A DNA stretch of 40,859 nt from a virus. Both the position numbers and the translations under genes were made by a program. Where the stretch lies: IMG/VR virus record IMGVR_UViG_3300029766_000013, one strand, 5' to 3'. This document shows positions 1 through 39,585 of this stretch, one piece after another. Position 1 is the first letter of the stretch. The number at the start of each line of letters is the position of its first letter. The notes under the pieces were generated by a model that saw only the letters and a program-made list of their open reading frames with translations, was not told where the DNA came from and did no database searches.

Positions 1-99
1 ATCTTAGATGGGGCAGAATTTACATATGTATGTAAAAAGAAAAAGACTGATCATTCACTGCAGATCGAACAGTTACAAAAAGAAATCAGTAAGCTCACC
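1..99. repeat. Terminal direct repeat, identical to 40761-40859 (circular-contig overlap)
   Basis: Both copies read atcttagatggggcagaatt...cagtaagctcacc base for base. The overlap lies inside one ORF and preserves its frame. Confidence 0.97.
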
Positions 100-2715: not shown

Positions 2716-5208
2716 CTATGCTGCAGTTACCTGCCAGTCAAATTCCAGATCCGGGGTTCCTGTTACAATGAAACTGTTTCTGTCTTTTTTAGATATGTAA
2801 AGATCTCCTTTTCCATATTTCGTGAGGGTTATGTAATATTGGCTTTCTATTGCATTAAGCAGGATGATGCATTTGCCATCTTCATTTAAGATTCCATGAC
2901 CATGTTCTGGATAAAGTTGCTGGATAGCCGCAACCATATATGGAATTAACATACGTTCATTCCAGTCTTCCACCTGATCATTCTGATATCGGGCAGCTGC
3001 AGGCAACAGATCATTCATATCTTCTGCATAGAAACCTGGAATTGGTTTATTGTACATCCTATCTTCTTTCGAAAGGTAGCCTTCTTTATATTCAAACCAA
3101 ACCACCGGTATCTTCCAAAACATGTCAATATCAGTTTTATCCATATATCGAACATGTTTTTTATACCTTTTCGATGAAGATGGTGCATAAGCTAAAGTTG
3201 CTCCATCAGATGCAAATACTACATGTCCACCCTGCGAGTAATGTACACAATTAAAAAGTTTTGGCGGCTCTGTAAATGATGCAATATTATTAAAGGTTGT
3301 AGTCCCATTAAATGTTGTTTGATATTTAAACGCAATCATTGAACCAAAGTATACACTCGAATTAAGATTAACATCCGCATTAAAGTCAACAGTATCTGTA
3401 AATGTAACCGGATCTATAAATTTAGCCGGATCTTCAATTTTGATTTCTTTTCCTGCCTGCAGGTGCAAATAATCCATACCTTTTAGTGAAGCATGACGTG
3501 CATTATCAGAATAATACGCCGACATATCCAAAAGTCCAGTTTGTGTATCACCCATATATCCTTTAATAACGCCTTCTTCTACTTTTGTAATCTTATAGGA
3601 ACTATACCAGGCTTGTTTTGTTTCAAAACTACCTTGTATCGCAGCTCCTGTACAGGTCAATTTTCCAGCTTCAGTCATAGAGGAATAATCACTCTGCCAC
3701 ATTATTTTCTTGGCCTGCAGGCGAATGCTGTCTGCTGATTGCTCTATCAGGGAACTTACTTCTGATTTGGTGACCGTTTCTATTCTCTGCCAGAAAGATG
3801 TATTCGTACCTACAGCAGGGCCTGTACATTTCCAGAGCTGATTGACGTTATTTCCATAATTGCCATGACTGCTCTCCGGATATGTTTCAGCGCTCAAAAT
3901 TGTTGCTGTATATCCAGGAAGTCCATCTGCTGATCCGGTCTTTGTTCCAGCTCCCTGAGTAACAGAATCAATCTTGAATCCATAGAAAGAATCCTGACTG
4001 CCATCTGTATGCCAGTATACATAGAATTCCTGAGTTGGTACATAAACAGTCGCTCCTGCAATACTGGTTCCACCCAGCTTTGCAGCACACTTCATCGTTC
4101 CATTATCATTATAAAAAATTTTCACATAGTCATAAGTTGTACTCTCTGTCCTACAATTTTCTGAAAACTTTATGATAAGGCCTGTATCACCGTAAAAATA
4201 CCTGTAGGTATTTCCTGTAGTAGTTTGGATATAGATGTCTCCATTATGCTGTTTTTTCAGGTCCTCTGTTGTCCAGGAAGATGCCGGGGCATTACTGGTT
4301 GTTGGAATATCCAGGCCATAGAAATTACCGTTTTTCTGGTCTATAGTTTCTCCTAAAGATTCCACTCGAGATGTTATTTTATTGGCAGATACCTCAATAG
4401 CAGCATTCATCGCTGCCGTGGTTGCATAGCTTTTTAATGTATCATTCTTTACATAGCTTTCAGAAACTGCCAAGGAAATGCTGTCAGCTGACTGCTTTAT
4501 TGCTGAATTCATCTCTACAGTTGTGCTGTATTTCTTTAATTTCTCATCTGTAGATTCCTGGGCAAGTTTTAAAGCTTCTTCCTGAGCTGCCTTTGCGGCA
4601 TCCTGTCCCGCTTTCGTGGCTGTGGTCTGCGCATCTGAAGCATATCCTTGTGCCTGCTGCCTTAGAGTTTCCTGCGCAACTGTCAAATTTTCAGTTGTTG
4701 CATATGTCTTTGATACTGTAGTTGATAAGCCGTCTACGCTGGCTTTTATTGCTGCATTCATCGCCTCTGTCGTACTATAATTTTCTGACAGTCTTGTATT
4801 TACTGCAGTAATGTTCGCAGATAAACCATCTACTCCTCTCTTGTATTCCGCTACTTTTGCATCAAGAGCGCTGTACTGACCAGTTACCGTATCATACTTT
4901 GTTGTCAGATCCGAGAAGCTTTCTGTCAGACCAGATACATCCATCTGAACACTTGCTAACTTGCTGTACATGGTTTCTTTACTGTTCTGTAATTCAACCA
5001 GTTCACTCTCGCTGATCAGAGCTGAAATCTTTCCCTGAGTAATAGAAATACTTGTTTCGTTTGCCTGAAAACGTTTCAGGATGGCATCCTTGGCATATAT
5101 GTTGATTTCCTTTTCAAATATCACACCGCCTTCCTCCTTTTCTGGAAAAATCCATAATAAAAGACATCCTAGATGGATGCCTTTTAGCATAGGTTTTTCT
5201 TTAATCAA
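2716..5208 (-). CDS. Tail fibre with a coiled-coil shaft and a C-terminal S74-type intramolecular chaperone domain
   Basis: Repeats of the YSTTxxMNAAIKxS type are present. The C-terminal stretch SSSKRYKKHVRYMD...PVVWFEYKEG...GFYAEDM...IPYMVAAIQQL matches the Peptidase_S74 pattern. The longest ORF begins at a TTG (5208), but GTG at 5124 preceded by AGGAGGAAGGCG is the more likely start. Confidence 0.8.
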   Translation of the reverse strand: MIKEKPMLKGIHLGCLLLWIFPEKEEGGVIFEKEINIYAKDAILKRFQANETSISITQGKISALISESELVELQNSKETMYSKLASVQMDVSGLTESFSDLTTKYDTVTGQYSALDAKVAEYKRGVDGLSANITAVNTRLSENYSTTEAMNAAIKASVDGLSTTVSKTYATTENLTVAQETLRQQAQGYASDAQTTATKAGQDAAKAAQEEALKLAQESTDEKLKKYSTTVEMNSAIKQSADSISLAVSESYVKNDTLKSYATTAAMNAAIEVSANKITSRVESLGETIDQKNGNFYGLDIPTTSNAPASSWTTEDLKKQHNGDIYIQTTTGNTYRYFYGDTGLIIKFSENCRTESTTYDYVKIFYNDNGTMKCAAKLGGTSIAGATVYVPTQEFYVYWHTDGSQDSFYGFKIDSVTQGAGTKTGSADGLPGYTATILSAETYPESSHGNYGNNVNQLWKCTGPAVGTNTSFWQRIETVTKSEVSSLIEQSADSIRLQAKKIMWQSDYSSMTEAGKLTCTGAAIQGSFETKQAWYSSYKITKVEEGVIKGYMGDTQTGLLDMSAYYSDNARHASLKGMDYLHLQAGKEIKIEDPAKFIDPVTFTDTVDFNADVNLNSSVYFGSMIAFKYQTTFNGTTTFNNIASFTEPPKLFNCVHYSQGGHVVFASDGATLAYAPSSSKRYKKHVRYMDKTDIDMFWKIPVVWFEYKEGYLSKEDRMYNKPIPGFYAEDMNDLLPAAARYQNDQVEDWNERMLIPYMVAAIQQLYPEHGHGILNEDGKCIILLNAIESQYYITLTKYGKGDLYISKKDRNSFIVTGTPDLEFDWQVTAA

Positions 5209-5216
5209 ATAGTAAG
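5203..5216. repeat. Left inverted repeat of the predicted invertible segment (AATCAAATAGTAAG)
   Basis: 13 of 14 positions match the reverse complement of 7056-7069 (AATTAAATAGTAAG). The 10-bp core AAATAGTAAG is identical. Confidence 0.7.
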
Positions 5217-5531
5217 GCTGGGACGATTTACAGCAAGGGTATTACAAATTATGGAGCTGCATACGATGCAGTAGTAATACATTCACCTGATATTTCAGTG
5301 AGAGAATTAGGCTTATTTGTAATGCTTGCTGGAAGCGAAAGCAATCAATTTGGGGCGTTTATTTACGGTGTGTCGGATAACAAAGTAAAACGCACAGAGA
5401 TAATAAATAATGGAAATGTATCAGTTACAGGTGACCCGACAGGTAATAGCATAACCATAAAAATCGGGAATTGGGGCAGAGGTGTTGTTTTTTCATATGC
5501 TCGATTCGATATAGAAATAAAAAAATTATAG
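5205..5531 (+). other. Silent, start-less alternative C-terminal cassette for the tail-tip gene 6768..7280
   Basis: The frame is open from 5205 (SNSKAGTIYSKGITNYGAAYDAVVIHSPDISVRELGLF...NSITIKIGNWGRGVVFSYARFDIEIKKL*). No RBS or plausible start precedes the repeat. AAT AGT AAG is in the same codon phase as N73-S74-K75 of the expressed gene. Confidence 0.65.
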
Positions 5532-5664
5532 TCTTCCCATTTCCTCTAATAACACCCATTTCAAAATGCTTCCATTTTCTGCTATTATTTTCAACATTTC
5601 TTATCACGCAAAATAGACCACCATTTCTGGCAGTCTCAAAAATTCCGTATGAAATCGTTCCTGG

Positions 5665-6696
5665 TTATGAAATGTATCGTCTAAAGGATGCTTTTACATT
5701 CTCTTCACTGACTGTTACGTACATCATCGTTGTATCCGGTTTTTGATGTCCTGCATACATTTGAATTTCCTGTAAAGGGATTCCTCTGTTGCCTGCATCT
5801 GTCAATAATGTTCTCCTGAACTTATGTGGATGAGCATGAATCTCTGTCTTGTTTCCTAAAGTCCTGAGCATGGACTGTATCGCCTGTTTGCCCAATCTTG
5901 TATGTGGTTGCTTGTTGCTCACAAATAGAGCTGGATTATTATCTTCTCTGGTAGACAGATATTTCTGCAAGTGATATGCGCAATCATCTGTCAGGTATAC
6001 TCTTCTCTCCTTTTTGCCTTTTTCTCCATATATGATTACCTCTTTGTTTCCCCAATCTATATCCTTTCGGTCCAGTCGCACCACCTCTCCTATTCTGGCT
6101 GCGGTACTGTATAAAAACGCCATAATCGCTATATCTCTCTGGCATCCGGCATTACAGCGTAGATGCTCCATTTCAGCTTGTGAGAATGGTTTCTTGATCA
6201 TTCTTGGTACCTTGATTTTCTTGAGTCTTCGTATGGGATTTCGGGATATGTATCCTTCATCACTGATCCATGCAAAGAAACTGCTTAGATACCTTCTGAT
6301 TGTATCCATGTAGCTCATGGAGATCTTGCGCTGTTCCTGATACATGGCCAGATAATAGCGGATGTCATTTGTTGTGATGTCCTGTAGTCTCTTATTCAGA
6401 GATGTAACCAACTTGGTTACACAATCCTTATAACGTTCTAATGTTCCTATGCTGCAGTTTTCTATTCGTTTACTGGCAATAAACGTTCGGAGAATTTTTT
6501 CCCAATGACTCTCTGATGTGACCAGCTGAGTACATTCCTGCTGCACTTCAATTCCATGAAATTCTATCGCCATTACATTCTCTAATTTCTGTAATTGCTC
6601 ATTTGACAGAATTTCCTGCATTTGTTCCAGTATTCTATTCTGGATCTGTTCTATATTTGTCAAAATAATGCACCTCCTACAGGACAATTCTGCCAT
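5665..6696 (-). CDS. Tyrosine recombinase (XerC/D / phage-integrase family), predicted invertase
   Basis: Catalytic pattern seen: ...STAARIGEV (Arg), HPHKFRRT (H-x-x-R), YAGHQ (His), TTMMYV (Tyr). N-terminal SAM-like core-binding region present (TLERYKDCV...YLSSFFAW). An alternative start is TTG 6663 behind GGAGGTG. Confidence 0.9.
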   Translation of the reverse strand: MAELSCRRCIILTNIEQIQNRILEQMQEILSNEQLQKLENVMAIEFHGIEVQQECTQLVTSESHWEKILRTFIASKRIENCSIGTLERYKDCVTKLVTSLNKRLQDITTNDIRYYLAMYQEQRKISMSYMDTIRRYLSSFFAWISDEGYISRNPIRRLKKIKVPRMIKKPFSQAEMEHLRCNAGCQRDIAIMAFLYSTAARIGEVVRLDRKDIDWGNKEVIIYGEKGKKERRVYLTDDCAYHLQKYLSTREDNNPALFVSNKQPHTRLGKQAIQSMLRTLGNKTEIHAHPHKFRRTLLTDAGNRGIPLQEIQMYAGHQKPDTTMMYVTVSEENVKASFRRYIS

Positions 6697-6767
6697 ATAA
6701 GAGGTACCTTTACAATTTGTTCATCCCTAAATTAAATGGGAAGTCATATCAAAACGGGTGTTACTAT

Positions 6768-7280
6768 CTAACTTATAGTCACAGACTCCAAGCAGATTAA
6801 AAGTGCTGTGCTCCAGGAGCCAAGTGTCACTTTTAATGTTGCCGAAGAAGCATCAAGTACGGGTGGTACTGCGTATTCAGATTTTTTTGATATTTCTGTC
6901 ACTCCCGACAGCTTTCCTGTTATGTATAAAGAGGTAATGCGGTTGTTATCAATTAGTAGAAACGAAGTCATATGACTGTTTGTATCACCCCATTTTACGC
7001 TTACTGTTTTGGTAGAGCCATCACTATATATAATATAACTATTGGCCTTGAACCGCTTACTATTTAATTGGTTTAAAGCCTGCAAAAGTGTCAGATTTCC
7101 CTGATCCAGAGCGAATGTCTGGGAGGTCAGATTTTGTAATATCTGTTTTGAGAGGTTTTCTAATGTGATGATCCCACCTTCGTTGGTGTCTGGATCGGTG
7201 AAGATGAGTTTCTTTCCAGTTGGGATGGTTGTTACTTCCGGGAGGGTGTTGGCTGCTACGCTTTCTTCTGGTAATGACAT
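6768..7280 (-). CDS. Small tail-tip / receptor-binding-like protein with a constant N-terminus (aa 1-75) and exchangeable C-terminus (aa 76-170)
   Basis: Lies directly after Tal, with RBS AGAAAGGAAACACT. The right inverted repeat sits at codons 73-75. The C-terminal part resembles the silent cassette (ATLKVTLGSWSTALLICLESVTI versus NSITIKIGNWGRGVVFSYARFDIEI). Confidence 0.6.
   Translation of the reverse strand: MSLPEESVAANTLPEVTTIPTGKKLIFTDPDTNEGGIITLENLSKQILQNLTSQTFALDQGNLTLLQALNQLNSKRFKANSYIIYSDGSTKTVSVKWGDTNSHMTSFLLIDNNRITSLYITGKLSGVTEISKKSEYAVPPVLDASSATLKVTLGSWSTALLICLESVTIS
7056..7069. repeat. Right inverted repeat of the predicted invertible segment
   Basis: The plus strand reads CTTACTATTTAATT, whose reverse complement is AATTAAATAGTAAG. 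It lies inside CDS 6768..7280. Confidence 0.7.
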
Positions 7281-7304: not shown

Positions 7305-10300
7305 TTATGCATCTGTGCTGAAGCAGAGAGCTTTTCCACTCAGAGTTAGAGCTCCGATGCTTACTGTTAATAGTTGCTGTTTATAGGTTTCGAATCGTCC
7401 GACTACAACACCGCCAAATATGTAATTTTCATTATTTACGGTGATCGTATAGCCATATCCCAGGAAGGTTTCGCCGCTTTCTGTCTTTCTGGTCCAGCTA
7501 TACCAGGTGGAAGGGTATTCTTTTGTTACTTCTCTGCCGTCTTTGTATACCACTGCTGTTAATGTTGTGGTCCCATCTCCGTTATCATGGTATCTGGCAT
7601 TATAGATCAGGGAATTGTTTGTCAGGCCATGAAGGTCTGTCGTTACTTCTGACAGGTTTGCTTTGATGCCATCTATTCCTGTTTGGATATCTGCCACCTT
7701 ATTATTGGTGGTTGTTATTGCCTCTTTTGCTTCATCTGCAGTATCCTGGGCTTTTTTGATATCTTCTGCCAATCCCTCTGCATCTGCAATGATTGCTACT
7801 GTCTGGGTGTCAAGCATCTGCACTCCTGTCGTATCATAAAGAGTACAGCGAATCAGATTTACATCAGGTCCTGTCGGTGTGTATATTTTCAGTGTTTCTG
7901 TTCCAGAAGAACCATAGGTAATGTTATAGGTTTTTCCGGAATCTTTGGATTCTTCTATCTGGAAAATCCCTGCATAGCTGCTTATCAGACCATTGTCATT
8001 TTTATATGCTGAGAAAGTCACACTGGATGGCAAAAGTGTTTTTCCATCCTTTTGTTTTCTCAGAACCAATGTGCTGGTCTGAATATTATAAGAAATACCG
8101 ATCTTTCCATCTTTTGACTTGCTGATAGAAAAACGTTTTTTGATCCAGACACCATTATTTTTTATCGTCAGGATCTTTCCGCCAATCACTAATATTTCAT
8201 CACCGAGCTGCAGGGCTTTTGATTCCAGGCCGTATTGTGCTTCGATATCTACATAACCGCTGTCAGTGGTCATGTCTGTTACCTGATAGGTCCGGGTTCT
8301 GGCATTCCAGGTACCCGTGATTCCTTCTGAAACTGTTACCCTCATTGCGTCAATATGGTCTGAAACGTCTGTATCTCCCAGATATACTTTCATGGTTGTA
8401 TGGCAGGTGCTATAATCCCCGCCGGTTCCATCCGGATTCGTATGAACTACATGCGCATCATTATCAAGTAATGCTCCGATCGCATCCAGTGTACTGATCC
8501 CGGATAATGTATCCAGTGCTTTTCTGGCTGTATCTGCCGCAGCGTCTGCAGTATCGCTGGCAGCCTTTGCAGTGCCGGTGGCACTATTGGCAGTTTCCTG
8601 CACGGTAGTAATATTTTTGCTGATCTGAGAGTATGCCTGGTTCAGATTCTGTCCGGAATCATCAAACCAGATCCGGCTACTCTTGATCACCTGGGCACTG
8701 TTATTGATCTCCTTAAACAAGCTGTCAATGTCCAGCTTGGAAGCTGCGATATTCGCATTGTCTGAAACCATGCTGTCTACTACAACGCCATCTGCGATTG
8801 CGCCTTTTTGAACGCCGGCTGCATCAATCAAAATCCCTTTTCCAGTCTCATCGAACAGTGCAAAAGCAAAGTTCCCGGATGCATCTTTTCCTGCCTGCAG
8901 TCTCACCACGCCGTTGGCATCCTTCCACTGCTGGGTGGCTCCCTGTATCTGGATCCCGCCATCATCTGAGACGATCGTAAATTTATCCGTAGAAATAGTT
9001 CCCGCCAAAAGATCGGATATCGTGACCGTCTGCATTACTGCATTCCGGATCAGTGCCGAATCGATCACCGCATTCTGAGAAGTCAGGTGAATATTCTGTA
9101 GATCCCCCACTCCAGCATTTCCGGAAAGAAGTGTCTTGATATTGGCATAGTTGCCATCCAGGATATCAATCTTTGCATTGGCAGCTTTGAACTGGGTCGC
9201 GGTCAGATCCCGGAAATTTCCTACGTCTGCATTCAGCATTTCAATATTGGCATTCGTAGCATTCAGGTTTGTAATCGTCGCATAGGTGATCTTAGCCGTG
9301 TCTACATCCAGCTTGTTGATCATCGCATGATCGATCATGACCAGCTGGGCGTAATAACGATCCATTTCTTTTGTCTGGGGACCTTTATAGTCTGCATTTG
9401 TTTCTTCTTCAGACAAGCCAACCGCTTCGATCGTATGCGTCAGACCGCCGTCATACTCCCATTCCAGCTTCATAGCAGGAACCTTGTAAGAATCTCCATT
9501 CAGGTCCTCTACTGTTAAAATATCCCAGGGATCCAGGCGGGGATCTCCTAAGAGTTTCAGATTTCCAGGCATATAAGAAAACTGGCCGATTGCTGAAAGG
9601 ATATTGTTCAGCACATCTTCTGTCATAAATGGATTGGAAAAGGTAACCGCTCTTGCTCCGTTGCCTGCAGATATGGAGCTGCTGTTCCCTTCTTCATCTT
9701 TTCCTGTATAGCAGGTCAGTTTTTCTACGTTAAATGGATACTCGTTATGCTCAAAATTATCCCAGTACCGTCCGGTCCCTACCGTGTAGTCGCTGTCTGT
9801 ATATGTGTGGATCTCTATCTGCCCCTGACGATTACAGAGAGCAAATCCGCCATACATCTGAGCTACATAGGAAAGGACCTCACGACAGGAATAGCCTTTC
9901 GGGTTCGCCATTGTGATTGCATCAAGTCCTTCTGTTATCACCGGTACCCGTGTAATCTCTGCAATGCGTTTCAATATTGCAATCGTATCCGTATTATCTG
10001 GAAGGCTGGAAGAAAAAGGTGTTTCCAGGTTCATCATACGGTCATATGCCGTAAATTCTATCTGGTTCTCCGTCTTTTTGGGCTTTCCGGCTGTAAAATA
10101 TCCAATGGGAATGTATTCCGTCAGGCCATCTATGTCCATGCCGATCTGCAGTAAAAATTCATGGTTTTCAATTGCGCCGGCGCAATCCGGGATTGTTGCT
10201 TCTACATACTGGGACACCACGGAGCCCAGGGAGAAATCATCCTCTCCTTCAGATCCGCCGGTAAACTTAATGTTTTTGGCATTCGTGATGCTGGTGTCAT

Positions 10301-10376
10301 CATAAGTGATCAGGCTTTTAAACGTTCGGGAATCCTGCTGTATCAGATTTCCGAAGGCTTCCGTTGACTGATACAT
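7305..10376 (-). CDS. Tail-associated large structural protein (Tal / prophage tail endopeptidase-type N-terminus)
   Basis: 1023 aa. The N-terminus MYQSTEAFGNLIQQDSRTFKSLITYDD...FTGGSEGEDDFSLGS resembles the phage minor structural protein N-terminal family. Positioned after the TMP/Dit-like genes, with RBS AAGGAGG. Confidence 0.8.
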   Translation of the reverse strand: MYQSTEAFGNLIQQDSRTFKSLITYDDTSITNAKNIKFTGGSEGEDDFSLGSVVSQYVEATIPDCAGAIENHEFLLQIGMDIDGLTEYIPIGYFTAGKPKKTENQIEFTAYDRMMNLETPFSSSLPDNTDTIAILKRIAEITRVPVITEGLDAITMANPKGYSCREVLSYVAQMYGGFALCNRQGQIEIHTYTDSDYTVGTGRYWDNFEHNEYPFNVEKLTCYTGKDEEGNSSSISAGNGARAVTFSNPFMTEDVLNNILSAIGQFSYMPGNLKLLGDPRLDPWDILTVEDLNGDSYKVPAMKLEWEYDGGLTHTIEAVGLSEEETNADYKGPQTKEMDRYYAQLVMIDHAMINKLDVDTAKITYATITNLNATNANIEMLNADVGNFRDLTATQFKAANAKIDILDGNYANIKTLLSGNAGVGDLQNIHLTSQNAVIDSALIRNAVMQTVTISDLLAGTISTDKFTIVSDDGGIQIQGATQQWKDANGVVRLQAGKDASGNFAFALFDETGKGILIDAAGVQKGAIADGVVVDSMVSDNANIAASKLDIDSLFKEINNSAQVIKSSRIWFDDSGQNLNQAYSQISKNITTVQETANSATGTAKAASDTADAAADTARKALDTLSGISTLDAIGALLDNDAHVVHTNPDGTGGDYSTCHTTMKVYLGDTDVSDHIDAMRVTVSEGITGTWNARTRTYQVTDMTTDSGYVDIEAQYGLESKALQLGDEILVIGGKILTIKNNGVWIKKRFSISKSKDGKIGISYNIQTSTLVLRKQKDGKTLLPSSVTFSAYKNDNGLISSYAGIFQIEESKDSGKTYNITYGSSGTETLKIYTPTGPDVNLIRCTLYDTTGVQMLDTQTVAIIADAEGLAEDIKKAQDTADEAKEAITTTNNKVADIQTGIDGIKANLSEVTTDLHGLTNNSLIYNARYHDNGDGTTTLTAVVYKDGREVTKEYPSTWYSWTRKTESGETFLGYGYTITVNNENYIFGGVVVGRFETYKQQLLTVSIGALTLSGKALCFSTDA
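10171..10186. repeat. Palindrome ATTGCGCCGGCGCAAT (copy 2, inside the Tal coding sequence)
   Basis: Read directly. Encodes D-C-A-G-A-I in Tal. Shares a 21-bp stretch CCGGATTGCGCCGGCGCAATT with copy 3, in the opposite orientation. Confidence 0.9.
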
Positions 10377-19129: not shown

Positions 19130-19255
19130 CTAAATACGTCCTTCTTTTTTCAATTTCTTAATTTCTTCTTCTGTAAGCTTTCTCGGTTTACCCAGCATTG
19201 CCACTCTGTCCTGAAAGTCTTTATAGGCTTTCTTTTCCTTTGATTTCATCTTCAT
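19130..19255 (-). CDS. Small basic protein (41 aa), translationally coupled to the MuF-ART gene
   Basis: ATGA overlap with the stop of 19252..20928. Translation MKMKSKEKKAYKDFQDRVAMLGKPRKLTEEEIKKLKKEGRI. Confidence 0.45.
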   Translation of the reverse strand: MKMKSKEKKAYKDFQDRVAMLGKPRKLTEEEIKKLKKEGRI

Positions 19256-20928
19256 ACGATCACCTGCAATTCTATTTCTTTTTCTTTCTTTGATACTACT
19301 CTGAATATAGTATCCTTGTCAAGCAATAACTCTCTTTGCTTAGGATATCTGCTTATCCTTTCAATATATGCTCCTTTGCTGCCTTTTGGTACATATATCA
19401 AAATTTTATATGATTTGTTCAACGCAGCTCCTTGAGTCACCGAAGTACTGATAAACTGTCCTTCCGTGACCAGATCATTTACTTCAAATTCATCATAAAG
19501 TGGTATGTCCAGATTTCTATATGTAATAACATCATGCTGAATCTTACTCTTTTTCAATGCACCTGATATTGTTTCTGCATACTCTCTAAGTTTTTTATCT
19601 TCTGCTATATCTCCACGAAGCATAGCATTAAGCCGTTCAAAGAATCGATCCGGCTTTTGATCGCCAGAATTGAACGTGTATTTTTCAATCGCATGTTTTT
19701 CTTTTTCTGATAAACAATCAATCCAATCCTGTGATTCTGTACGAAGAAGGCTGACAATCTGATTCTGCGGAACTGCGTGGAAATCTGCAAGTGGTCTTTT
19801 TGATTCTGCATATTCCTGGCTGTCCATATTACCAGTCTTCATTCTAACATGTTGCCACTCTTTTTGTTTTTGTCCATACACCTGTTGGTTCTCCGGATCC
19901 AGAGAGAATTGTGACAGCCTATTATATTTCTTTTCCTGGCGTTCGGCATATTGCTGACGTTCCCGCCTGGCGTTTTTCTCTACAAGGTTGTTGAGCTCTT
20001 CTCTGGTATATTTCCCATCGGGTGGAGTATTGACTCCTTCAATGTAGGTTGTATGGCTGTCACGGCATCGGGGATGGTAAAGTCCAGCTGCTATGGCAGC
20101 ACTTATCAGCGGATACTTAATTCCTGTAACGGGAGATACTCCGTCTTTCGGACCTCCGCTCCATACATCATCAATCATGACTTTTCCCACGAATGGAACA
20201 CACAAAGAGCAAGGACAGCCACTGCCACGTTTATTGATAATCACTGTGTACACGCCCCATTCCCGGCGTTTCTCTCCTTCCCCCTGCAGGTACGCTCTTT
20301 TCGTTGCTGTTCGGATTGCCATATCTGCATAGTCTGCAAGGGTATGTCTGGCACCATTGGCATATTCCACGCAGTTTAGACCTGCTTTGAGGAAATCCTT
20401 AGTTGCCATATCCACAGCTTTTTCATAGGTTCCTGCACCGGTATTGGCATATACCTGAGCATTATAAATAATTCTCCGATATTGATCATTAGCCATGCGA
20501 AGCACTGCAGTTTCTGCTTTCTTCATATCATCTGTTGTGGCTTTGATCAGAGCTTCCAGCTTCCGATCATTCAGCTTAAAAAATTCTGCAGTACCTCCCT
20601 TGCTTATTTTATTTGCCGGAAAGCCTTTTTTTATGGCATTCAAAATAGTGATCTCCTGCTGCATATTTCCTTCTGTTCTTGCAGTCCGAATCAGCTCCGC
20701 TATCTTTGCATTGATATCCTTAAACTGTTTGCCATATTTCTTTTGATTATTATGTTTATATTCTTCCAGGGATTTCAGCATTTCTGTCTGCCACATGGAC
20801 CATTGTTTGTCTTCGTCAATTTCTTCCTGCTTATGAGATTCCATATTGCGGATCATGGATGCTATGAGTTCATTCTCTATAGCTTCAAAGGCAGCTCCAA
20901 TATCGTATTCATCATTTATCCTTGCCAT
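19252..20928 (-). CDS. MuF/SPP1-gp7-like minor head protein fused to a C-terminal ADP-ribosyltransferase (C3/VIP2-type) domain
   Basis: MuF core with YHPRCRDSHTTY (compare HPNCRC). The C-terminal roughly 190 aa carry EKHAIEKYT...LNAMLRG, then ITYRNLD (Arg), QFISTSV (S-T-S) and YPKQRELLL (Q-x-E), which is the R-S-E ART signature. Confidence 0.85.
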   Translation of the reverse strand: MARINDEYDIGAAFEAIENELIASMIRNMESHKQEEIDEDKQWSMWQTEMLKSLEEYKHNNQKKYGKQFKDINAKIAELIRTARTEGNMQQEITILNAIKKGFPANKISKGGTAEFFKLNDRKLEALIKATTDDMKKAETAVLRMANDQYRRIIYNAQVYANTGAGTYEKAVDMATKDFLKAGLNCVEYANGARHTLADYADMAIRTATKRAYLQGEGEKRREWGVYTVIINKRGSGCPCSLCVPFVGKVMIDDVWSGGPKDGVSPVTGIKYPLISAAIAAGLYHPRCRDSHTTYIEGVNTPPDGKYTREELNNLVEKNARRERQQYAERQEKKYNRLSQFSLDPENQQVYGQKQKEWQHVRMKTGNMDSQEYAESKRPLADFHAVPQNQIVSLLRTESQDWIDCLSEKEKHAIEKYTFNSGDQKPDRFFERLNAMLRGDIAEDKKLREYAETISGALKKSKIQHDVITYRNLDIPLYDEFEVNDLVTEGQFISTSVTQGAALNKSYKILIYVPKGSKGAYIERISRYPKQRELLLDKDTIFRVVSKKEKEIELQVIV

Positions 20929-29164: not shown

Positions 29165-31321
29165 TTATATCGCCTCCATAAAATCTTCTTCCAGTTTCTT
29201 CAGGACAAACGTATTCTGGTTTTTCTGAAGTTCCTTTATGTTCTGCTCCCTTAAAATGGCACTTTGGGCAGCGTGTTTCTTATCCTCTTTCGTGAGTCTC
29301 TTTTTGATTTCTTTCTGCCACAGTTTCAGAAATCCGCGTATTTCCTCTATCCCCGGTTCCTCATCATAGTAGGAACGGTTCTGGCGGATCGTGCCACCCG
29401 GTTCAAATTCTATTGTGTAGAACGGGATGCCCGGTTCCTCCTCCCGTCTCAGGAAACCTATGAAAGTCTCTCTGTTCTCTATCCGGTTAAAATATCTCTC
29501 AGAGCTTCCGGCGCAGTGATGCAGGGCATACCCTTCCCGAACGATCTCTACCGGGTTTTCCGGCATGATCATTCTGTAACCCTCTGCTGCAAATTCATAT
29601 TTTTCCTTTACTTCTTTCATTACTTCCGTTGTTCCAGGAAACTTTTCTTCCATTATCCGGGCTTCCTGCTGTCGTAATTCTGGATTTTCACTCATTCTTC
29701 TTACTGTGTCCAGTTTCTTTTTATCGGTTATCAGTTCGTCATGTCTCTGTTTCAGGTCTTTGGGCTTATAGAACAATTCGTCATTCAGATTTTTATTCTG
29801 TGCCTTGCGCATGAATAAATAATCCACCCATTGGCTTAATGCCCTTTGCGGCGTCCCATAATGCTTTCCTGCCTGCTTCCGGATATAATTTACAATCTGT
29901 TCTATACTCATTCTGTCTGTGATCTCATCCGGAAGTTCTTCGATTTCTTTTGTCGCGATTCTGTTTTCTTCCAGATAGTCCATGGTATTTTTCGGAATCT
30001 TACAGCCATAGGCTTCTGCATATTTGAGCCATTCCAACCGGATGCATCCACCATTCTCATCCCTGAGGCGATTGATCTTCTGTTTATCCGTCAGCCCCAT
30101 GACTTCTTCTATGCTGTTTCCATTTACGGATAAGGGTCCTGAATAAGAGCCATTATATGCCCAACATGATCTTGCAGTTTCCTTACACAGACGGTAAAAA
30201 CGTCCTTTTGCCAGATATTCCATCATAATTCCCAGCTTGCGAAGGCGACAACCTGCTGCCATGAGGGAATTGTAATTGAGCATGAGTCCCAGTCTTGCCA
30301 TCTCCACAAAAGCATTTGTCACACTTTCATACTCTGTTCCTTTTAATGCCTCCGGAATTCCTTTAGGATACAGAAAGCAATCCTCCATCCGTTTGTTTTG
30401 TGGGTTGCTTGTATACCAGTCACTTCTTATCAAACCGTTACTCCATTCATAGGTTTCCCCGTCCTGGTTGTAAAAGATCATATAGTTTGGTCTCACATGT
30501 CCTTTGTTATATAAAAGAATACGTACACCTTCCTCCAGAAAAACACGGTGACCATTTATACAGTGTTCAATTTCTGCCCTGTAGTGTCTGGCGACACCAT
30601 ATTCCGGAGTTATCCGTTCCAGCTTGCAGGCTCTTGTTTTGCTCCATATCCGCTGTGTTCTCTTTTTTACCACTGCTGGCTGTCCACATTCTGGGCATTT
30701 TCTGGTTTCTCCCTGTCTGGGTTTATCCAAATTCTTTTCCAGTATCTGAGAGCCGCAGTTACTGCATCCATAAGTGTTGTTTCCTTTGTTCCAGAAGAGA
30801 TATCTTTCTGTGCTGCAGATTTTATAAAGCCACTCTTTAAATTCTTCATCGTTATCTGTGATCCCTTCCATAAGCCGGTCAATCTTCCGGTATTTGTTAT
30901 CGAGACTGCGGAGACGCTTTTCTTTACCGTAATCCTCTTCCATGCTTTCGATCTTAGACAGAAGATATTTATCCGAATATACGGTCTGTACGGCATTTTT
31001 CACAGTTTCTATATCTTCTTTGGTATCCCACCTGACTTTTTCAAGTATTCTGGAATTATAAAAACTTTCATACAAAGGATCGTATCCCATGATCCGGATC
31101 AGCTTCTGGGTGTTCCAGTCTCCCTGTTCATATCTGCCGGCATGCTCCCCGGTTTCCGCGTTTAATACATAACGGCTGATATATCTGTTGTACCGGAACA
31201 GATCCAGAATCAGGTACTCTTTCTCAGTCTGGGCTTTTACAATGATCTTTTCTCCGATATCCTTTTTGTTCTTATGTCTGGGTATTGGTATCGGTACCTT
31301 TTCAATCAGCTTATATTTCAT
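29165..31321 (-). CDS. PcfJ-like protein
   Basis: The C-terminal block VREGYALHHCAGSSERYFNRIENRETFIGFLRREEEPGIPFYTIEFEPGGTIRQNR matches the PcfJ-like pattern. Zinc ribbon CSNCG...CPECG in the N-terminal half. Confidence 0.65.
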   Translation of the reverse strand: MKYKLIEKVPIPIPRHKNKKDIGEKIIVKAQTEKEYLILDLFRYNRYISRYVLNAETGEHAGRYEQGDWNTQKLIRIMGYDPLYESFYNSRILEKVRWDTKEDIETVKNAVQTVYSDKYLLSKIESMEEDYGKEKRLRSLDNKYRKIDRLMEGITDNDEEFKEWLYKICSTERYLFWNKGNNTYGCSNCGSQILEKNLDKPRQGETRKCPECGQPAVVKKRTQRIWSKTRACKLERITPEYGVARHYRAEIEHCINGHRVFLEEGVRILLYNKGHVRPNYMIFYNQDGETYEWSNGLIRSDWYTSNPQNKRMEDCFLYPKGIPEALKGTEYESVTNAFVEMARLGLMLNYNSLMAAGCRLRKLGIMMEYLAKGRFYRLCKETARSCWAYNGSYSGPLSVNGNSIEEVMGLTDKQKINRLRDENGGCIRLEWLKYAEAYGCKIPKNTMDYLEENRIATKEIEELPDEITDRMSIEQIVNYIRKQAGKHYGTPQRALSQWVDYLFMRKAQNKNLNDELFYKPKDLKQRHDELITDKKKLDTVRRMSENPELRQQEARIMEEKFPGTTEVMKEVKEKYEFAAEGYRMIMPENPVEIVREGYALHHCAGSSERYFNRIENRETFIGFLRREEEPGIPFYTIEFEPGGTIRQNRSYYDEEPGIEEIRGFLKLWQKEIKKRLTKEDKKHAAQSAILREQNIKELQKNQNTFVLKKLEEDFMEAI

Positions 31322-37455: not shown

Positions 37456-38871
37456 ATGAATATTGTGGGATTATTCGATATATTCAGAGTTGGCAAAATT
37501 AAGGCCGAAAATAATTCTTTAAAACAGCAGTTACAAGAATTGCATGCTGATGAATATTTTCAAGTAAAAGCTCGCTTGAATTCTATGACCCAAGAAATTG
37601 TTGATAATAATGCGCTTATATCTAAGCAGCATGAAGAACTTTCTTCCCTTACTGAACGTTCTCAAAAAGTCAGTAAGCAGCTAAATACACAGACATCTAA
37701 AATTAATCGCTACAAAGAACTGTATAAGAGTATTGAATATGTACTTGATAATTTTCTCATATCTGATATTCAGTACAGCAACTGTCGCCTAAATCCCCAT
37801 GATAAAAAGGATTTGGAAGCGCTCACTCCCTCGATATCATTATGTTTTCATTCTTTAGATGTTAAAGAGCTTCGTAAGGCATATAAAGAAAATGAGAAAC
37901 AAATAGATCAGTTGATGAATCTTTACAAGTCTCGTTATACTACTAAAGCAAATAAATCTATATATTCTCTTGTCGTTATCGCTCTTAGAGCTGAACTGCA
38001 AAATGTTTTGTATAATCTAAAATACGATAAATTAGAAAAATCTATTGAAGACATTAAAACCATCTGTGCAAAATATCTTAAGATTGCTGCAGAAGGAAAT
38101 CAGAGTATTGCCAGCACTCTCACGAAATTTATTGGTGAAATGGAATATCTTTTTATCAACGCTGTTAAAATAGAATACTCTTACTACACAAAGAAAGAAC
38201 AGGCTCGTCAAGAACAACTTGCTTTAAAAGAACAAATGAGGCAAGAAGCCGAGGAAAGAAAAGCTCTTGAAACAGAACGAAAGAAAATTGAAAAAGAAGA
38301 AACTAAATATAAAATTGAGATTGAAAAACTTCAAGGTTCTCTTAACCAAGCCTCTTCCGATACCGAAACGCAAAAATTACGCGCCCGAATTCTTGAATTA
38401 CAGCAACAACTTTCTAATGTAATTGTCAAAAAGGATGAAATTACTACTTTGCAGAACGGTAAAGCAGGAAATGTATATATAATCAGTAATTTAGGAGCTT
38501 TCGGAAAGGATGTATTCAAAATCGGAATGACTCGTCGTTTAGACCCTCAGGATCGTGTTAACGAGCTTGGCAGCGCAAGTGTTCCATTTAAATTTGATGT
38601 ACATAGTTTTATCTTTTCTCAAGATGCTGTTGGACTCGAAAAGCAACTCCATGATATTTTAAATGAGAAAAGGCTCAATAAAGTAAATCTTCGCAAAGAA
38701 TTTTTCAGAGTAGACATTTCCGAATTGGAAAGTATAGTTACTTCTATTGATCCAACTGCAGAATTTAATAAAACTATGTTTGCAGAGGAATTCCACCAAT
38801 CAGCTGAAATTGATTTGTCGCAACCATCCAATAAAACTATTTGGATAGATGAAGAAGACAATAACGAATAA
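37456..38871 (+). CDS. DUF4041-like coiled-coil protein with a C-terminal T5orf172 (GIY-YIG-related) domain
   Basis: A long coiled coil (QEQLALKEQMRQEAEERKALETERKKIEKEE) is followed by GNVYIISNLGAFGKDVFKIGMTRRLDPQDRVNELGSASVPFKFDVH...LHDILNEKRLN...EFFRV, the T5orf172/MUG113 pattern. Confidence 0.7.
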   Translation: MNIVGLFDIFRVGKIKAENNSLKQQLQELHADEYFQVKARLNSMTQEIVDNNALISKQHEELSSLTERSQKVSKQLNTQTSKINRYKELYKSIEYVLDNFLISDIQYSNCRLNPHDKKDLEALTPSISLCFHSLDVKELRKAYKENEKQIDQLMNLYKSRYTTKANKSIYSLVVIALRAELQNVLYNLKYDKLEKSIEDIKTICAKYLKIAAEGNQSIASTLTKFIGEMEYLFINAVKIEYSYYTKKEQARQEQLALKEQMRQEAEERKALETERKKIEKEETKYKIEIEKLQGSLNQASSDTETQKLRARILELQQQLSNVIVKKDEITTLQNGKAGNVYIISNLGAFGKDVFKIGMTRRLDPQDRVNELGSASVPFKFDVHSFIFSQDAVGLEKQLHDILNEKRLNKVNLRKEFFRVDISELESIVTSIDPTAEFNKTMFAEEFHQSAEIDLSQPSNKTIWIDEEDNNE

Positions 38872-38883
38872 ATTAACATTAAC

Positions 38884-38950
38884 AAAAAACCGCCCCAGTA
38901 TTGGCGTACTGAGACGGTGATCAAAATCTCCGAAGAGATGCTCGATTTGC
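38884..38950 (-). ncRNA. Predicted minus-strand sRNA, copy A (promoter at 38957-38985)
   Basis: On the minus strand: TTGTGT (38985-38980), 17-nt spacer, TGaTACAAT (-10 at 38962-38957); hairpin ATCTC-UUCG-GAGAT (38926-38939); terminator stem 38890-38896/38911-38917, which pairs with G.U only on the minus strand, then U6. Confidence 0.45.
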
Positions 38951-39042
38951 AAAGATATTGTATCATCTTCGGAACAGTTACACAAGTCGAACGTTTATGT
39001 ATATGTGATCACATCAATGGATTGAAGAAAGGAGTTTTCATT

Positions 39043-39585
39043 ATGCCATTACCCAAAGAACGGATTTATACAATAGATGACATCTACGCTCTTCCTGATG
39101 GCGAACGTGCAGAGCTGATTGATGGACAGATCTATATGATGGCACCACCTAATACCAGACATCAGGTAATCGTCGGTGAACTGTATGCTACTATCCGCAA
39201 TTACATTAAAAGTAAAAGCGGATCCTGTAAACCATATGTTTCTCCATTTGCAGTGTTCCTGAATGAAGATAACAAGAACTATGTCGAACCAGACTTAACA
39301 GTTGTCTGCTCACCGGACAAAGTAGATGAAAAAGGTTGTCATGGTGCACCTGACTGGGTAATTGAGGTTGTTTCTCCTGCTACCCAGAGTAAAGATTACG
39401 GAATAAAATTATTTAAATACCGGATGGCCGGAGTCAGAGAATATTGGATTATAAATCCCCTGAAAGGTATCGTAAATGTCTACGATTTTGAAAATGAATC
39501 GGGTACCGGATTGTATTCTTTCGACGATGAAATTCCAGTATGTATATATCCCGATTTATCAATTGTGATCTCTGAATTATTATAA
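39043..39585 (+). CDS. Uma2-family (DUF820) PD-(D/E)xK nuclease
   Basis: AELIDGQIYMMAPPNTRHQ...EPDLTVVC...APDWVIEVVSPAT...K...Y...GVREYWIINP is the Uma2 signature. AGGAG precedes ATG 39043. Confidence 0.8.
   Translation: MPLPKERIYTIDDIYALPDGERAELIDGQIYMMAPPNTRHQVIVGELYATIRNYIKSKSGSCKPYVSPFAVFLNEDNKNYVEPDLTVVCSPDKVDEKGCHGAPDWVIEVVSPATQSKDYGIKLFKYRMAGVREYWIINPLKGIVNVYDFENESGTGLYSFDDEIPVCIYPDLSIVISELL

What the first reader, a model, noticed from the sequence alone, without database searches (positions are those of the whole stretch)
5203..7069. Predicted invertible tail-tip cassette driven by an embedded tyrosine recombinase
Seen in the sequence:
- A 14-bp inverted repeat, AATCAAATAGTAAG at 5203-5216 and AATTAAATAGTAAG on the minus strand at 7069-7056. 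The two copies differ at one position and share an identical 10-bp core.
- The right copy lies inside the expressed gene 6768..7280 at codons N73-S74-K75.
- The left copy is followed on the opposite strand by a 104-codon open frame (5217..5531). This frame has no start codon or RBS, but it is in exactly the same codon phase (AAT AGT AAG = NSK).
- Inversion of 5217-7055 would therefore join residues 1-75 in frame to a new 104-aa C-terminus in place of the present 95 aa.
- The two C-termini look homologous: HMTSFLLIDNNRITSLYITG versus ELGLFVMLAGSESNQFGAFIYG, and ATLKVTLGSWSTALLICLESVTI versus NSITIKIGNWGRGVVFSYARFDIEI.
- A complete tyrosine recombinase (R, HxxR, H and Y motifs) sits inside the segment.
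- The phage already has a large serine integrase, so this second recombinase has no obvious integration role.

Established knowledge: Mu Gin/G and P1 Cin/C switch tail-fibre C-termini using serine invertases encoded outside the segment, and the R64 shufflon uses the tyrosine recombinase Rci.

Inference: this is a host-range phase-variation switch with a tyrosine invertase inside the flipping segment. Flipping would also reverse the recombinase gene and change read-through into the 830-aa fibre gene.
Basis: partly seen in the sequence, partly recalled or inferred. Interest (0 to 1): 0.9.

Follow-up and report, generated by a model that had tools for sequence, protein, structure and literature searches.

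The report
Invertible tail-protein switch in Blautia phage
A gut-bacterium (Blautia wexlerae) phage carries a small DNA segment that flips to give one of its tail proteins either of two different tips; public assemblies hold all four arrangements of the switch, so the prediction is confirmed as a new variant of a known kind of phage switch.

Summary
The 14-bp inverted repeats (5203-5216 and 7056-7069) share the core AAATAGTAAG, which encodes N73-S74-K75 of a 170-aa tail-module protein.

- **Predicted product found.** The 179-aa fusion exists exactly as predicted (P0150), in 182 index blocks against 225 for the 170-aa form.
- **Flipped block found.** Contigs that are otherwise 99.8-100% identical carry 5203-7069 inverted as one block.
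- **Isogenic pairs.** Two pairs of lysogens with no mismatch in 18.6 kb of flanks differ only in switch state.
- **Second, nested switch.** This gives four states, and all four are observed.
- **Wider family.** Relatives carry up to 10 cassettes, each opened in frame by AAATAGTAA, always with the recombinase in the middle. This locus is therefore the smallest member of a shufflon family.
- **Mobile cassettes.** Cassettes bounded exactly by the two site types also occur in unrelated phage backbones that have no recombinase nearby.

The closest precedent is the Rin shufflon of Bifidobacterium and Eggerthella prophages. Still inferred: that this recombinase is the catalyst, and that the switched domain binds the receptor. 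Verdict: new variant of a known kind, interest 0.62.

The parts
7056..7280 (-). Constant part of the switched tail gene: codons 1-75, ending ...LNQLNSK.
   Evidence: The sequence is nearly invariant in more than 100 homologues whose C-termini are unrelated to one another. The AF2 models place the junction at the end of a helix (residues 60/65-75), just before the beta domain.
7056..7069 (-). Site S1-R: AATTAAATAGTAAG. It lies inside the expressed gene; its last nine bases encode N73-S74-K75.
   Evidence: The site is invariant in 22 related loci, and the sequence diverges completely immediately after it. It is the breakpoint of every flipped contig.
6768..7055 (-). Cassette C1: 95 codons plus stop. 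In this window it is the expressed C-terminus.
   Evidence: It is found inverted and silent in L027 and in L042-L048 and L050 (L051 breaks off inside it, L049 at a scaffold gap).
6734..6743 (+). Site S2-R: AAATGGGAAG, 24 nt past the C1 stop codon.
   Evidence: It is the breakpoint, with a 10-nt overlap, of the inner inversion in L004, L005 and L007. The window holds only two copies, where 0.14 are expected.
5665..6663 (-). Xer-like tyrosine recombinase, 332 aa, with a TTG start behind AGGAGG.
   Evidence: It matches PF00589 and PF13495. Its best NCBIfam match is XerA-type at 199 bits, below the cutoff of 220. In the PDB it matches XerC-like, XerA and XerD chains. It is present in every multi-cassette relative and in neither orientation exclusively.
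5615..5636 (-). Terminator-like hairpin just after the recombinase stop codon, inside the inner invertible segment.
   Evidence: This is a consensus match only; no function is shown.
5533..5542 (-). Site S2-L: AAATGGGAAG on the - strand, 1 nt past the C2 stop codon.
5217..5531 (+). Cassette C2: 104 codons plus stop, with no start codon. In this window it is silent.
   Evidence: It is fused in frame to codons 1-75 in P0001 and P0150 and in loci L001, L027 and L042-L051.
5203..5216 (+). Site S1-L: AATCAAATAGTAAG.
   Evidence: The C/T difference at 5206 stays with its flank after inversion, so the crossover lies within AAATAGTAAG.
7038..7043 (-). Secondary crossover point: AATAGT in C1 codons 5-6.
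   Evidence: L009 and P0002 join here to S1-L, giving ...NSKRFKANSKAGTIY.
2716..5127 (-). Downstream 802/803-aa fibre-like gene. It lies outside the switch and is shown for context.
7305..10376 (-). Upstream 1023-aa tail protein. It lies outside the switch and is shown for context.
   Evidence: It matches phrog_6616 (tail protein) and phrog_9680 (host range and adsorption protein).

Best explanation
The region 5203-7069 is a site-specific DNA-inversion switch, a two-cassette 'mini-shufflon'. It sits in the tail module of a temperate, circularly assembled Blautia wexlerae phage.

A Xer-like tyrosine recombinase is encoded between two alternative C-terminal cassettes of a small tail protein.

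- **Outer inversion.** Recombination between the inverted S1 sites flips 5217-7055. The S1 core AAATAGTAAG encodes N73-S74-K75. The flip replaces the 95-aa C-terminal beta domain (C1, giving a 170-aa protein) with a different 104-aa one (C2, giving a 179-aa protein).
- **Inner inversion.** A second, heterospecific inverted pair, S2 (AAATGGGAAG), lies just past both cassette stop codons. Recombination there flips only the recombinase gene (5543-6733).

Together these give four interconvertible states.

**What is shown and what is inferred.**
- Shown: the four arrangements, the breakpoints, and isogenic lysogens that differ only in state.
- Inferred from strict co-occurrence: the embedded recombinase catalyses both reactions.
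- Inferred from gene position, from extreme C-terminal diversity on an invariant N-terminus, and from analogy with Rin, Gin and Min: the swapped domain is the receptor-binding head, so the switch changes host range.
For: **The predicted product and the flipped arrangements exist.**
- The predicted fusion exists: P0001 is 99% identical over 100% of its length, and P0150 is identical to the prediction. P0150 is on 104 contigs and 182 index blocks; the 170-aa form is on 150 contigs and 225 blocks.
- L045 (NCBI GCA_022715305.1) and L048 carry window 5203-7069 inverted as a single 1867-bp block.
- L027 and eight of the ten loci (all but L045 and L048) carry the outer and inner inversions together.
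- L004, L005 and L007 carry the inner inversion only.
- L002, L003 and L006 are colinear with the window. All of these are 99.3-100% identical to it.

**Isogenic lysogens differ in state.**
- L004 (state 2) and L044 (state 4) have 0 mismatches in 18,613 bp outside the switch, including 3.7 kb of host DNA. They differ by one S1 x S1 inversion.
- L002 (state 1) and L042 (state 4) also have 0 mismatches in 18,613 bp. The other pairs compared do not align base for base over the host flank; their host flanks are 98.5-99.6% identical to L002's.

**Both junctions occur in one sample.** Contig L007 contains both the B-C1 and the B-C2 junction.

**The sites are specific and conserved.**
- There are exactly two S1 and two S2 cores in 40.9 kb, each pair inverted.
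- S1 is invariant in 22 relatives, with a sharp boundary after it.

**The family shows the same design.**
- 70 S1 sites in 13 loci each open an in-frame cassette of at least 40 codons (44-114 in the ten loci printed), falling into 41 sequence families.
- The recombinase is present, flanked by S2, in all multi-cassette loci. It is absent from the single-cassette loci.
- L016, L018 and L019 hold the same cassettes in a different order and orientation.

**Assembly artefact is unlikely.** The repeats (10-14 bp) are far shorter than assembler k-mers, which argues against artefactual flipping.
Against: - No read-level or experimental data were available. The rate, the timing (lysogen or lytic growth) and the catalyst are not shown.
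- The 170-aa protein has no Pfam, PHROG, NCBIfam or PDB match.
- The fold searches gave only generic Ig-like hits, with E > 1e-3 and TM about 0.3. 'Receptor-binding' therefore rests on context alone.
- C1 and C2 are not demonstrably homologous.
- No sigma-70-like promoter was found for the recombinase, so how it is expressed in either orientation is unknown.
- The purpose of the inner flip is unexplained.
Confidence: 0.85

Rival explanations
1. The inversion is real, but the switched protein is not the receptor-binding protein. The variable domain might instead serve antigenic variation (for example escape from host antibodies), decoration or mucus binding, or a role in the lysogen.
For: The protein matches no family or fold. 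A much larger 802-aa fibre-like protein follows it and a 1023-aa 'host range and adsorption'-like protein precedes it. Either of those could be the primary adhesin.
Against: The gene lies between tail and fibre genes. An invariant 75-aa N-terminus is combined with dozens of unrelated ~45-115-aa C-termini, which is the pattern seen in modular receptor-binding proteins. The Rin, Gin, Cin and Min precedents all target receptor-binding proteins or fibres (PMC6109161).
Confidence: 0.25
2. The inversion is real but is catalysed by another enzyme: a host invertase or the phage's large serine recombinase. On this view the embedded Xer-like gene has another job, such as dimer resolution or integration.
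For: No experiment links the enzyme to the sites. The phage also encodes a serine recombinase. The Xer-like protein scores best against XerA, XerC and XerD models.
Against: The recombinase is present in every locus with two or more cassettes, always between the oppositely oriented site sets and itself flanked by S2. It is absent from the single-cassette loci. The inner segment is 99% conserved in L010 although both cassettes differ. A 40%-identical recombinase sits among four copies of a different 15-bp site, so enzyme and site appear to co-vary. Its scores are below the Xer family cutoffs.
Confidence: 0.07
3. The arrangements are old, fixed alleles produced by rare homologous or illegitimate recombination. 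They are not products of an active switch.
For: No single-sample read counts were available. Most contigs show only one state.
Against: Lysogens with 0 mismatches in 18.6 kb, host flank included, differ in state, while the other pairs compared do not match base for base there and have host flanks 98.5-99.6% identical to L002's. Both junctions occur in one contig. The breakpoints are confined to 10 bp. The two forms are about equally common (225 against 182 blocks). Four IMG/VR contigs break 43-48 bp after S1.
Confidence: 0.03
4. The alternative arrangements are assembly artefacts.
For: Some supporting contigs are short (L001 940 bp, L009 908 bp). L049 contains a scaffold gap.
Against: The repeats are 10-14 bp, well below assembler k. 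The same arrangements recur in many long contigs (up to 168 kb) from SPAdes, MEGAHIT, Logan, JGI and an NCBI genome, drawn from independent samples.
Confidence: 0.01

Closest known systems
Rin shufflon of Bifidobacterium breve/longum prophages (Mavrich et al. 2018, PMC6109161), also reported in Eggerthella lenta prophages (PMC8778435)
   Same: It is phage-encoded and uses a XerD-like tyrosine recombinase without an arm-binding domain. A constant N-terminal part of the receptor-binding-protein gene is combined with several ~95-100-aa start-less C-terminal cassettes, each preceded by a short (11-bp) crossover site. One site lies inside the gene and another just after its 3' end. Its variants were also recognised by comparing prophages and virion DNA.
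   Different: The host phylum differs (Firmicutes/Lachnospiraceae, not Actinobacteria). The site sequence differs: AAATAGTAAG and AAATGGGAAG here, TTCCCTAACCC (rix) there, and rix is absent from the window. Here the recombinase sits in the middle of the cassette array and is therefore inverted by every productive flip. It also has its own second site pair that flips it alone, whereas rin lies at one end of the array. The constant part is 75 aa here and 168 aa there. Orthology of the two recombinases was not tested.
Gin/G (Mu), Cin/C (P1), Min (p15B) and Pin (e14) tail-fibre inversion systems
   Same: Inversion swaps the C-terminal part of a tail-fibre gene downstream of a constant N-terminal part. 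Min has multiple cassettes.
   Different: Those systems use serine invertases encoded outside the segment, with ~26-bp sites and a Fis-dependent enhancer (established knowledge). Here the enzyme is a tyrosine recombinase (PF00589) encoded inside the segment.
R64 / IncI plasmid shufflon (Rci, sfx sites, pilV)
   Same: A tyrosine recombinase acts at short asymmetric sites in which only the core and one arm are conserved. Multiple cassettes give alternative C-termini of an adhesin. Only inversions are seen, not deletions.
   Different: The R64 target is a conjugative pilus tip adhesin, not a phage protein. rci lies outside the shufflon. No Rci-specific model appears among the matches listed for the recombinase.
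Phase-variable Type I R-M hsdS loci with an embedded tyrosine recombinase (for example the Streptococcus pneumoniae ivr/SpnD39III locus with CreX/IvrR). This comparison is from my own knowledge and was not tested here.
   Same: The recombinase gene lies between the expressed gene and inverted silent half-gene cassettes, so it rides on the invertible DNA. The system has multiple states.
   Different: The target is a restriction specificity subunit. The repeats are longer, and some inversions there are independent of the recombinase. There is no separate site pair dedicated to flipping the recombinase gene.

Membership tests
Rin-type phage shufflon (tyrosine-invertase switch on a receptor-binding-protein gene) | A phage-encoded tyrosine recombinase without an arm-type N-terminal domain lies adjacent to the cassettes. 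| tested here: met
   The protein matches PF00589 and PF13495 only, is 332 aa, and aligns with XerA and XerD over residues 58-328.
Rin-type phage shufflon (tyrosine-invertase switch on a receptor-binding-protein gene) | A constant N-terminal coding part is combined with start-less alternative C-terminal cassettes, each preceded by a short conserved crossover site. | tested here: met
Rin-type phage shufflon (tyrosine-invertase switch on a receptor-binding-protein gene) | Inversion variants whose breakpoints lie at the sites are observed among otherwise identical genomes. | tested here: met
Rin-type phage shufflon (tyrosine-invertase switch on a receptor-binding-protein gene) | The rix crossover sequence TTCCCTAACCC is present. 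| tested here: not met
   The window has no match even with 1 mismatch allowed. The sites here are AAATAGTAAG and AAATGGGAAG.
Rin-type phage shufflon (tyrosine-invertase switch on a receptor-binding-protein gene) | The recombinase lies at one end of the array, outside the invertible DNA. | tested here: not met
   The recombinase lies between the oppositely oriented S1 sets and is flanked by an S2 pair. Both orientations are observed.
Rin-type phage shufflon (tyrosine-invertase switch on a receptor-binding-protein gene) | The recombinase is orthologous to Rin. | not tested
Rin-type phage shufflon (tyrosine-invertase switch on a receptor-binding-protein gene) | The target is the receptor-binding protein. 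| tested here: inconclusive
   The gene is in the tail module and has hypervariable C-termini, but it matches no family or fold.
Serine-invertase fibre switches (Gin/Cin/Min/Pin) | The recombinase belongs to the serine (resolvase/invertase) family. | tested here: not met
   The embedded enzyme is a tyrosine recombinase. The phage's serine recombinase is a large integrase-type gene located at the window ends.
Xer chromosome/plasmid dimer-resolution recombinases | The protein scores above the curated family cutoff for XerA, XerC or XerD. | tested here: not met
   XerA scores 199 bits against a cutoff of 220. XerC scores 135 against 335. XerD scores 118 against 330.
R64-type shufflon (Rci) | An Rci recombinase acts at 19-bp sfx sites on a pilV target. 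| tested here: not met
   The target is a phage tail-module gene, and the conserved site is about 13 bp, A-T-n-AAATAGTAA-G. The site asymmetry is analogous.

The most novel reading that the evidence does not exclude
The two heterospecific site types (S1 AAATAGTAAG, S2 AAATGGGAAG) may do more than flip DNA.

- **Cassette exchange.** Every recombinase-proximal cassette is bracketed by S1 on one side and S2 on the other. That is the geometry of recombinase-mediated cassette exchange. The same 340-bp cassettes, bounded exactly by S1 and S2, occur at 89-98% identity in otherwise unrelated phage backbones that have no recombinase nearby. The system may therefore be an integron-like, site-specific trading network for receptor-binding heads among gut phages.
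- **Orientation reset.** The dedicated S2 x S2 self-flip may re-set the recombinase gene's orientation, and hence its expression or read-through, after each productive inversion. The gene is co-directional with the tail operon in about 38 of 46 contigs of this phage.
Probability: 0.3. Interest if true: 0.8.

Novelty: new variant of a known kind. Interest (0 to 1): 0.62.

Why it matters
- **Abundance of the host and of both states.** Blautia wexlerae and other Lachnospiraceae are among the most abundant human gut bacteria (my own knowledge), yet their phage-host specificity is almost unstudied. This prophage is common: hundreds of index blocks carry it, and its two tail-protein forms are about equally frequent.
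- **Consequence for host-range prediction.** If the swapped domain is the receptor-binding head, one phage genome would encode 2 receptor specificities, and its relatives up to about 10, selected by DNA inversion. Host-range prediction from a single assembly would then be unreliable.
- **Consequence for assembly.** Several IMG/VR contigs break just past the switch site.
- **Practical value.** The 10-bp sites and the compact 332-aa recombinase, with two apparently non-cross-reacting site variants, could serve as a natural orthogonal inversion and cassette-exchange toolkit for Clostridia.
- **Catalogue of heads.** The set of more than 40 cassette families on one invariant 75-aa adaptor is a ready-made library for engineering receptor-binding proteins.

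Tried and rejected
- **Nucleotide search.** The region has no match in 50,697 GenBank phage records.
- **Genome scan.** Scanning genome contigs with the recombinase returned one locus only, L008, labelled as an Eggerthellaceae MAG. It was not informative about the host. The host came instead from cluster names, which give Blautia wexlerae.
- **Homology of C1 and C2.** BLASTP gave E = 0.1, and hhalign gave P = 0.0099 with probability 4%. Homology is not established.
- **Structure.** The AF2 models have pLDDT 65 (170 aa) and 77 (179 aa). Foldseek against the PDB gave only antibody-like or Ig-like beta-sandwich hits, with E > 1e-3 and TM about 0.3. No similarity to TP901-1-like heads could be shown.
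- **Profile search.** The profile of 121 homologues found nothing in the PDB.
- **Promoter scan.** It found fewer sites than shuffled sequence does and none upstream of the recombinase. A promoter-in-segment model could not be supported.
- **Cultured relatives.** phiCp-D and TPELB_ph1 have recombinases 28% identical to this one, lying between the fibre and holin genes, but no convincing inverted repeats were found. They were not pursued. phiCs5676-1's homologue is not in a tail context.
- **S1 x S2 hybrids.** The hybrid cores AAATAGGAAG and AAATGGTAAG were sought in 550 kb of loci and none was found.
- **Literature.** Five searches found no description of this system in Blautia or Lachnospiraceae phages.

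Full report
**1. What the sequence shows**

All the tail genes here lie on the minus strand. In order they are:
- a 1023-aa tail protein (7305..10376; phrog_6616 'tail protein' and phrog_9680 'host range and adsorption protein');
- a 170-aa ORF (6768..7280);
- a tyrosine recombinase (5665..6696 as the longest ORF);
- an 802/803-aa fibre-like gene whose real start is the GTG near 5127, behind AAGGAGGAA.

The gene callers use the TTG at 6663, behind AGGAGG, as the recombinase start, which gives 332 aa.

The reported inverted repeat is exact: AATCAAATAGTAAG at 5203-5216 (+) and AATTAAATAGTAAG at 7069-7056 (-). These are the only two matches in 40.9 kb.

The repeat alone would be weak evidence, because one search lists several chance inverted repeats of similar quality. 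The context is what matters:
- the right copy encodes L72-N73-S74-K75 of the 170-aa ORF;
- the left copy is preceded by an in-frame TAA and opens SNSK followed by 104 codons with no start codon.

The window has a 99-bp terminal direct repeat, so it is a circular assembly.

**2. The predicted flipped product exists**

I searched the protein collection with the hypothetical fusion, made of residues 1-75 plus the 104-aa frame.
- P0001 came back at 99% identity over 100% of the length.
- Its cluster contains P0150, which is identical to the prediction residue for residue.
- P0150 is recorded on 104 contigs and in 182 index blocks. The 170-aa form is on 150 contigs and in 225 blocks.

At the DNA level:
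- L045 (NCBI GCA_022715305.1) and L048 carry window 5203-7069 inverted as one 1867-bp block, between flanks that are 99.4-100% identical.
- L001 is the same junction on a 940-bp Logan contig.
- The single C/T difference between the two repeat copies (position 5206) stays with its flank after inversion. The crossover therefore lies within the shared 10-bp core AAATAGTAAG.

**3. A second, nested inversion**

Loci L004, L005 and L007 have the 170-aa gene unchanged but window 5533-6743 inverted, with a 10-nt overlap at each end. The breakpoints are a second inverted pair, AAATGGGAAG, at 6734-6743 (+) and 5542-5533 (-). They lie 24 nt and 1 nt past the stop codons of the two cassettes. These are the only two copies in the window, where 0.14 are expected. 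This inner segment holds only the recombinase gene and a terminator-like hairpin.

Combining the two inversions gives four states, and all four are observed for this same phage:

| State | Arrangement | Where seen |
|---|---|---|
| 1 | C1 expressed, recombinase co-directional with the tail genes | window, L002, L003, L006 |
| 2 | C1 expressed, recombinase reversed | L004, L005, L007 |
| 3 | C2 expressed, recombinase reversed | L001, L045, L048 |
| 4 | C2 expressed, recombinase co-directional | L027, L009, L042-L044, L046, L047, L049-L051 |

**4. Active switching rather than fixed alleles or artefact**

- L004 (state 2, ERZ27238170) and L044 (state 4, ERZ27238168) show 0 mismatches in 10,200 + 8,413 bp outside the switch, including about 3.7 kb of host chromosome. 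They differ by exactly one S1 x S1 inversion.
- L002 (state 1) and L042 (state 4) are likewise identical over 18,613 bp. The other pairs compared do not align base for base over the host flank; their host flanks are 98.5-99.6% identical to L002's.
- Contig L007 contains the N-terminal segment twice, once joined to C1 and once, at its end, joined to C2. This requires both junctions in that one sample.
- Four IMG/VR contigs end 43-48 bp after the S1 site, and three more end within 430 bp of it. That is the pattern expected from assembly-graph forks at a polymorphic junction.
- The repeats are 10-14 bp, below assembler k-mer sizes. The arrangements recur in contigs up to 168 kb from several assemblers and sources. 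Artefact is therefore excluded for practical purposes.

**5. The family**

- *Constant part and site.* The 75-aa N-terminus is nearly invariant in more than 100 homologues. After ...LNS(K/N) the C-termini fall into dozens of unrelated types. In 22 related loci the site AATTAAATAGTAA(G/C/T) is invariant, and the sequence diverges completely immediately after it.
- *Cassette arrays.* Relatives carry many cassettes: L020 has 1+7, L021 8+1, L022 3+6, L023 2+6, L038 6+4, and L016 and L019 1+4. All S1 sites on the gene side of the recombinase point one way, and all those beyond it point the other way. The recombinase is always flanked by an inverted S2 pair.
- *Cassette content.* All 70 S1 sites examined in 13 loci open an in-frame N-S-K/N cassette of at least 40 codons (44-114 in the ten loci printed). 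These fall into 41 BLASTP families.
- *Compact packing.* In 32 of the 70, the stop codon of one cassette overlaps the next S1 core. In 15 of those the stop is the TAG inside AAATAGTAA. The site thus reads NSK in one frame and as a stop in another.
- *Shuffling.* L016, L018 and L019 hold the same cassettes in a different order and orientation, with flank-cassette re-assortment exactly at S1.
- *Site shape.* A logo of 70 distinct S1 sites shows conservation only of A(-3), T(-2), the 9-mer and G(+1). The site is short and asymmetric.
- *Inner flip in relatives.* L017 and L021 also show the inner inversion.

The window's locus is therefore the minimal, two-cassette member of a shufflon family.

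**6. The recombinase**

It has the tyrosine-recombinase catalytic domain plus a SAM-like core-binding domain and no arm-binding domain. The catalytic residues can be read directly in the sequence...TAARIGE..., HKFRR, GH and MMYV. Its best models are XerA, XerC and XerD, all below their curated cutoffs, and its PDB matches are XerC-like, XerA and XerD chains.

That it is the catalyst is an inference from three observations:
- it is present in every multi-cassette locus and absent from the single-cassette loci;
- its S2-bounded segment is 99% conserved in L010 even though both cassettes there are different;
- a 40%-identical homologue (L052, MT835621) sits among four copies of a different 15-bp site, TAAATGATAATTTAG, two in each orientation. 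This suggests that enzyme and site co-vary.

**7. The switched protein**

It matches no Pfam, PHROG, NCBIfam or PDB family. The AF2 models (pLDDT 65 and 77) show a small N-terminal beta element, then helices ending at the NSK junction, then an all-beta C-terminal domain for both C1 and C2. Foldseek returns only generic Ig-like sandwiches. The receptor-binding role is therefore inferred from position, from the architecture of an invariant adaptor joined to hypervariable heads, and from precedent.

**8. Cassette mobility**

C1 and C2, as 340-bp units running exactly from S1 to S2 (window 7069-6730 and 5203-5542), occur at 89-98% identity in phages whose flanks share no nucleotide similarity with this one. 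Those phages have a different N-terminal domain, ending ...ALNELNSK, and no recombinase within the locus. No S1/S2 hybrid cores were found in 550 kb of loci. This fits two non-cross-reacting site types that bracket each recombinase-proximal cassette. It suggests, but does not prove, site-specific cassette exchange between phages.

**9. Comparison with known systems**

[quoted passage not shown] It has also been reported in Eggerthella lenta prophages (PMC8778435).

Shared features:
- a Xer-like armless recombinase;
- a constant N-terminus plus ~95-100-aa start-less cassettes;
- short sites, with one inside the gene and one just after it.

Differences:
- the host phylum;
- the site sequence (rix is absent from the window);
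- the recombinase lies in the centre of the array, so every productive inversion flips it;
- a dedicated second site pair flips the recombinase alone.

Gin, Cin and Min work similarly but use serine invertases encoded outside the segment. R64's Rci is analogous in its asymmetric sites. From my own knowledge, pneumococcal hsdS loci also carry the recombinase on invertible DNA. Five literature searches found no description of this system in Blautia or Lachnospiraceae phages.

**10. Verdict**

The locus is a new variant of a known kind. The main unknowns are the catalyst, the role of the self-flip, how the recombinase is expressed (no promoter was found), and the phenotype.

The recombinase is co-directional with the tail operon in roughly 38 of 46 contigs of this phage. 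This count is approximate, because 'similar places' were not inspected individually. The bias hints that orientation matters.

Noticed in passing
window 1-99 and 40761-40859; serine recombinase ORF from about 39750 across the end to about 410: The window has a 99-bp terminal direct repeat, so it is a circular assembly of a phage of about 40.76 kb. A large serine recombinase gene (MSSKVAALYIRVSTEDQ...) spans the junction. Integrated copies diverge from the window at position 476, next to host cotJB/cotJA.
   Followed up: partly
window 7038-7043; L009 535-540: Logan contig L009 (protein P0002, 186 aa) joins C1 codons 1-6 to S1-L through a 6-nt AATAGT overlap, giving ...NSKRFKANSKAGTIY. This looks like a rare crossover at a secondary pseudo-site. 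It would narrow the strand-exchange region to AATAGT.
   Followed up: partly
L052 (MT835621.1) 4185-4199, 4876-4890, 6466-6480, 7076-7090: A human faecal phage contig encodes a recombinase 40% identical to this one. It has four copies of a different 15-bp site, TAAATGATAATTTAG, two in each orientation, around the recombinase, plus a 144-nt diverged direct repeat. It is probably a sister shufflon with its own site.
   Followed up: partly
L028 (Clostridium phage phiCp-D) 5001-5978; L029 (Terrisporobacter phage TPELB_ph1) 4929-5924: Two cultured Clostridia phages carry a Xer-like gene annotated 'integrase' (28% identical) between the tail-fibre genes and the holin. TPELB_ph1 also has a separate large serine integrase. 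No clear inverted sites were found.
   Followed up: partly
window 5615-5636 (-): A 9-bp-stem hairpin followed by AUUUUG lies just after the recombinase stop codon, inside the self-flipping segment. It folds well only on the recombinase strand. If it is a terminator, the inner flip would change read-through from the tail operon into the fibre and lysis genes.
   Followed up: partly
window 19252-20928 (-): The 558-aa minor capsid protein 2 homologue (PF06152) carries a C-terminal ADP-ribosyltransferase exoenzyme domain (PF03496 at 1e-19, and PF01129).
   Followed up: no
protein P0030; window 7848-8009 (+): A database protein joins residues 1-75 plus AGTIY to the translation of the + strand of window 7848-8009. 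It is either a chimeric assembly or another rearrangement.
   Followed up: no
L014, L015, L024, L026 (IMG/VR contigs): Four viral contigs end 43-48 bp after the S1 site, and three more end within 430 bp of it. The switch appears to break short-read assemblies of this phage group systematically.
   Followed up: partly
window 37456-39585 (+) and 29165-31321 (-): The accessory genes include a 471-aa protein with a T5orf172/MUG113 domain, a Uma2-family putative restriction endonuclease and a 718-aa PcfJ-like protein.
   Followed up: no
L008 (CAVBVT010000014.1): The only species-representative genome hit for the recombinase (89% identity, three cassettes) is binned as Eggerthellaceae, whereas cluster names point to Blautia wexlerae. 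This may be a mis-binned phage contig. It was not checked.
   Followed up: no
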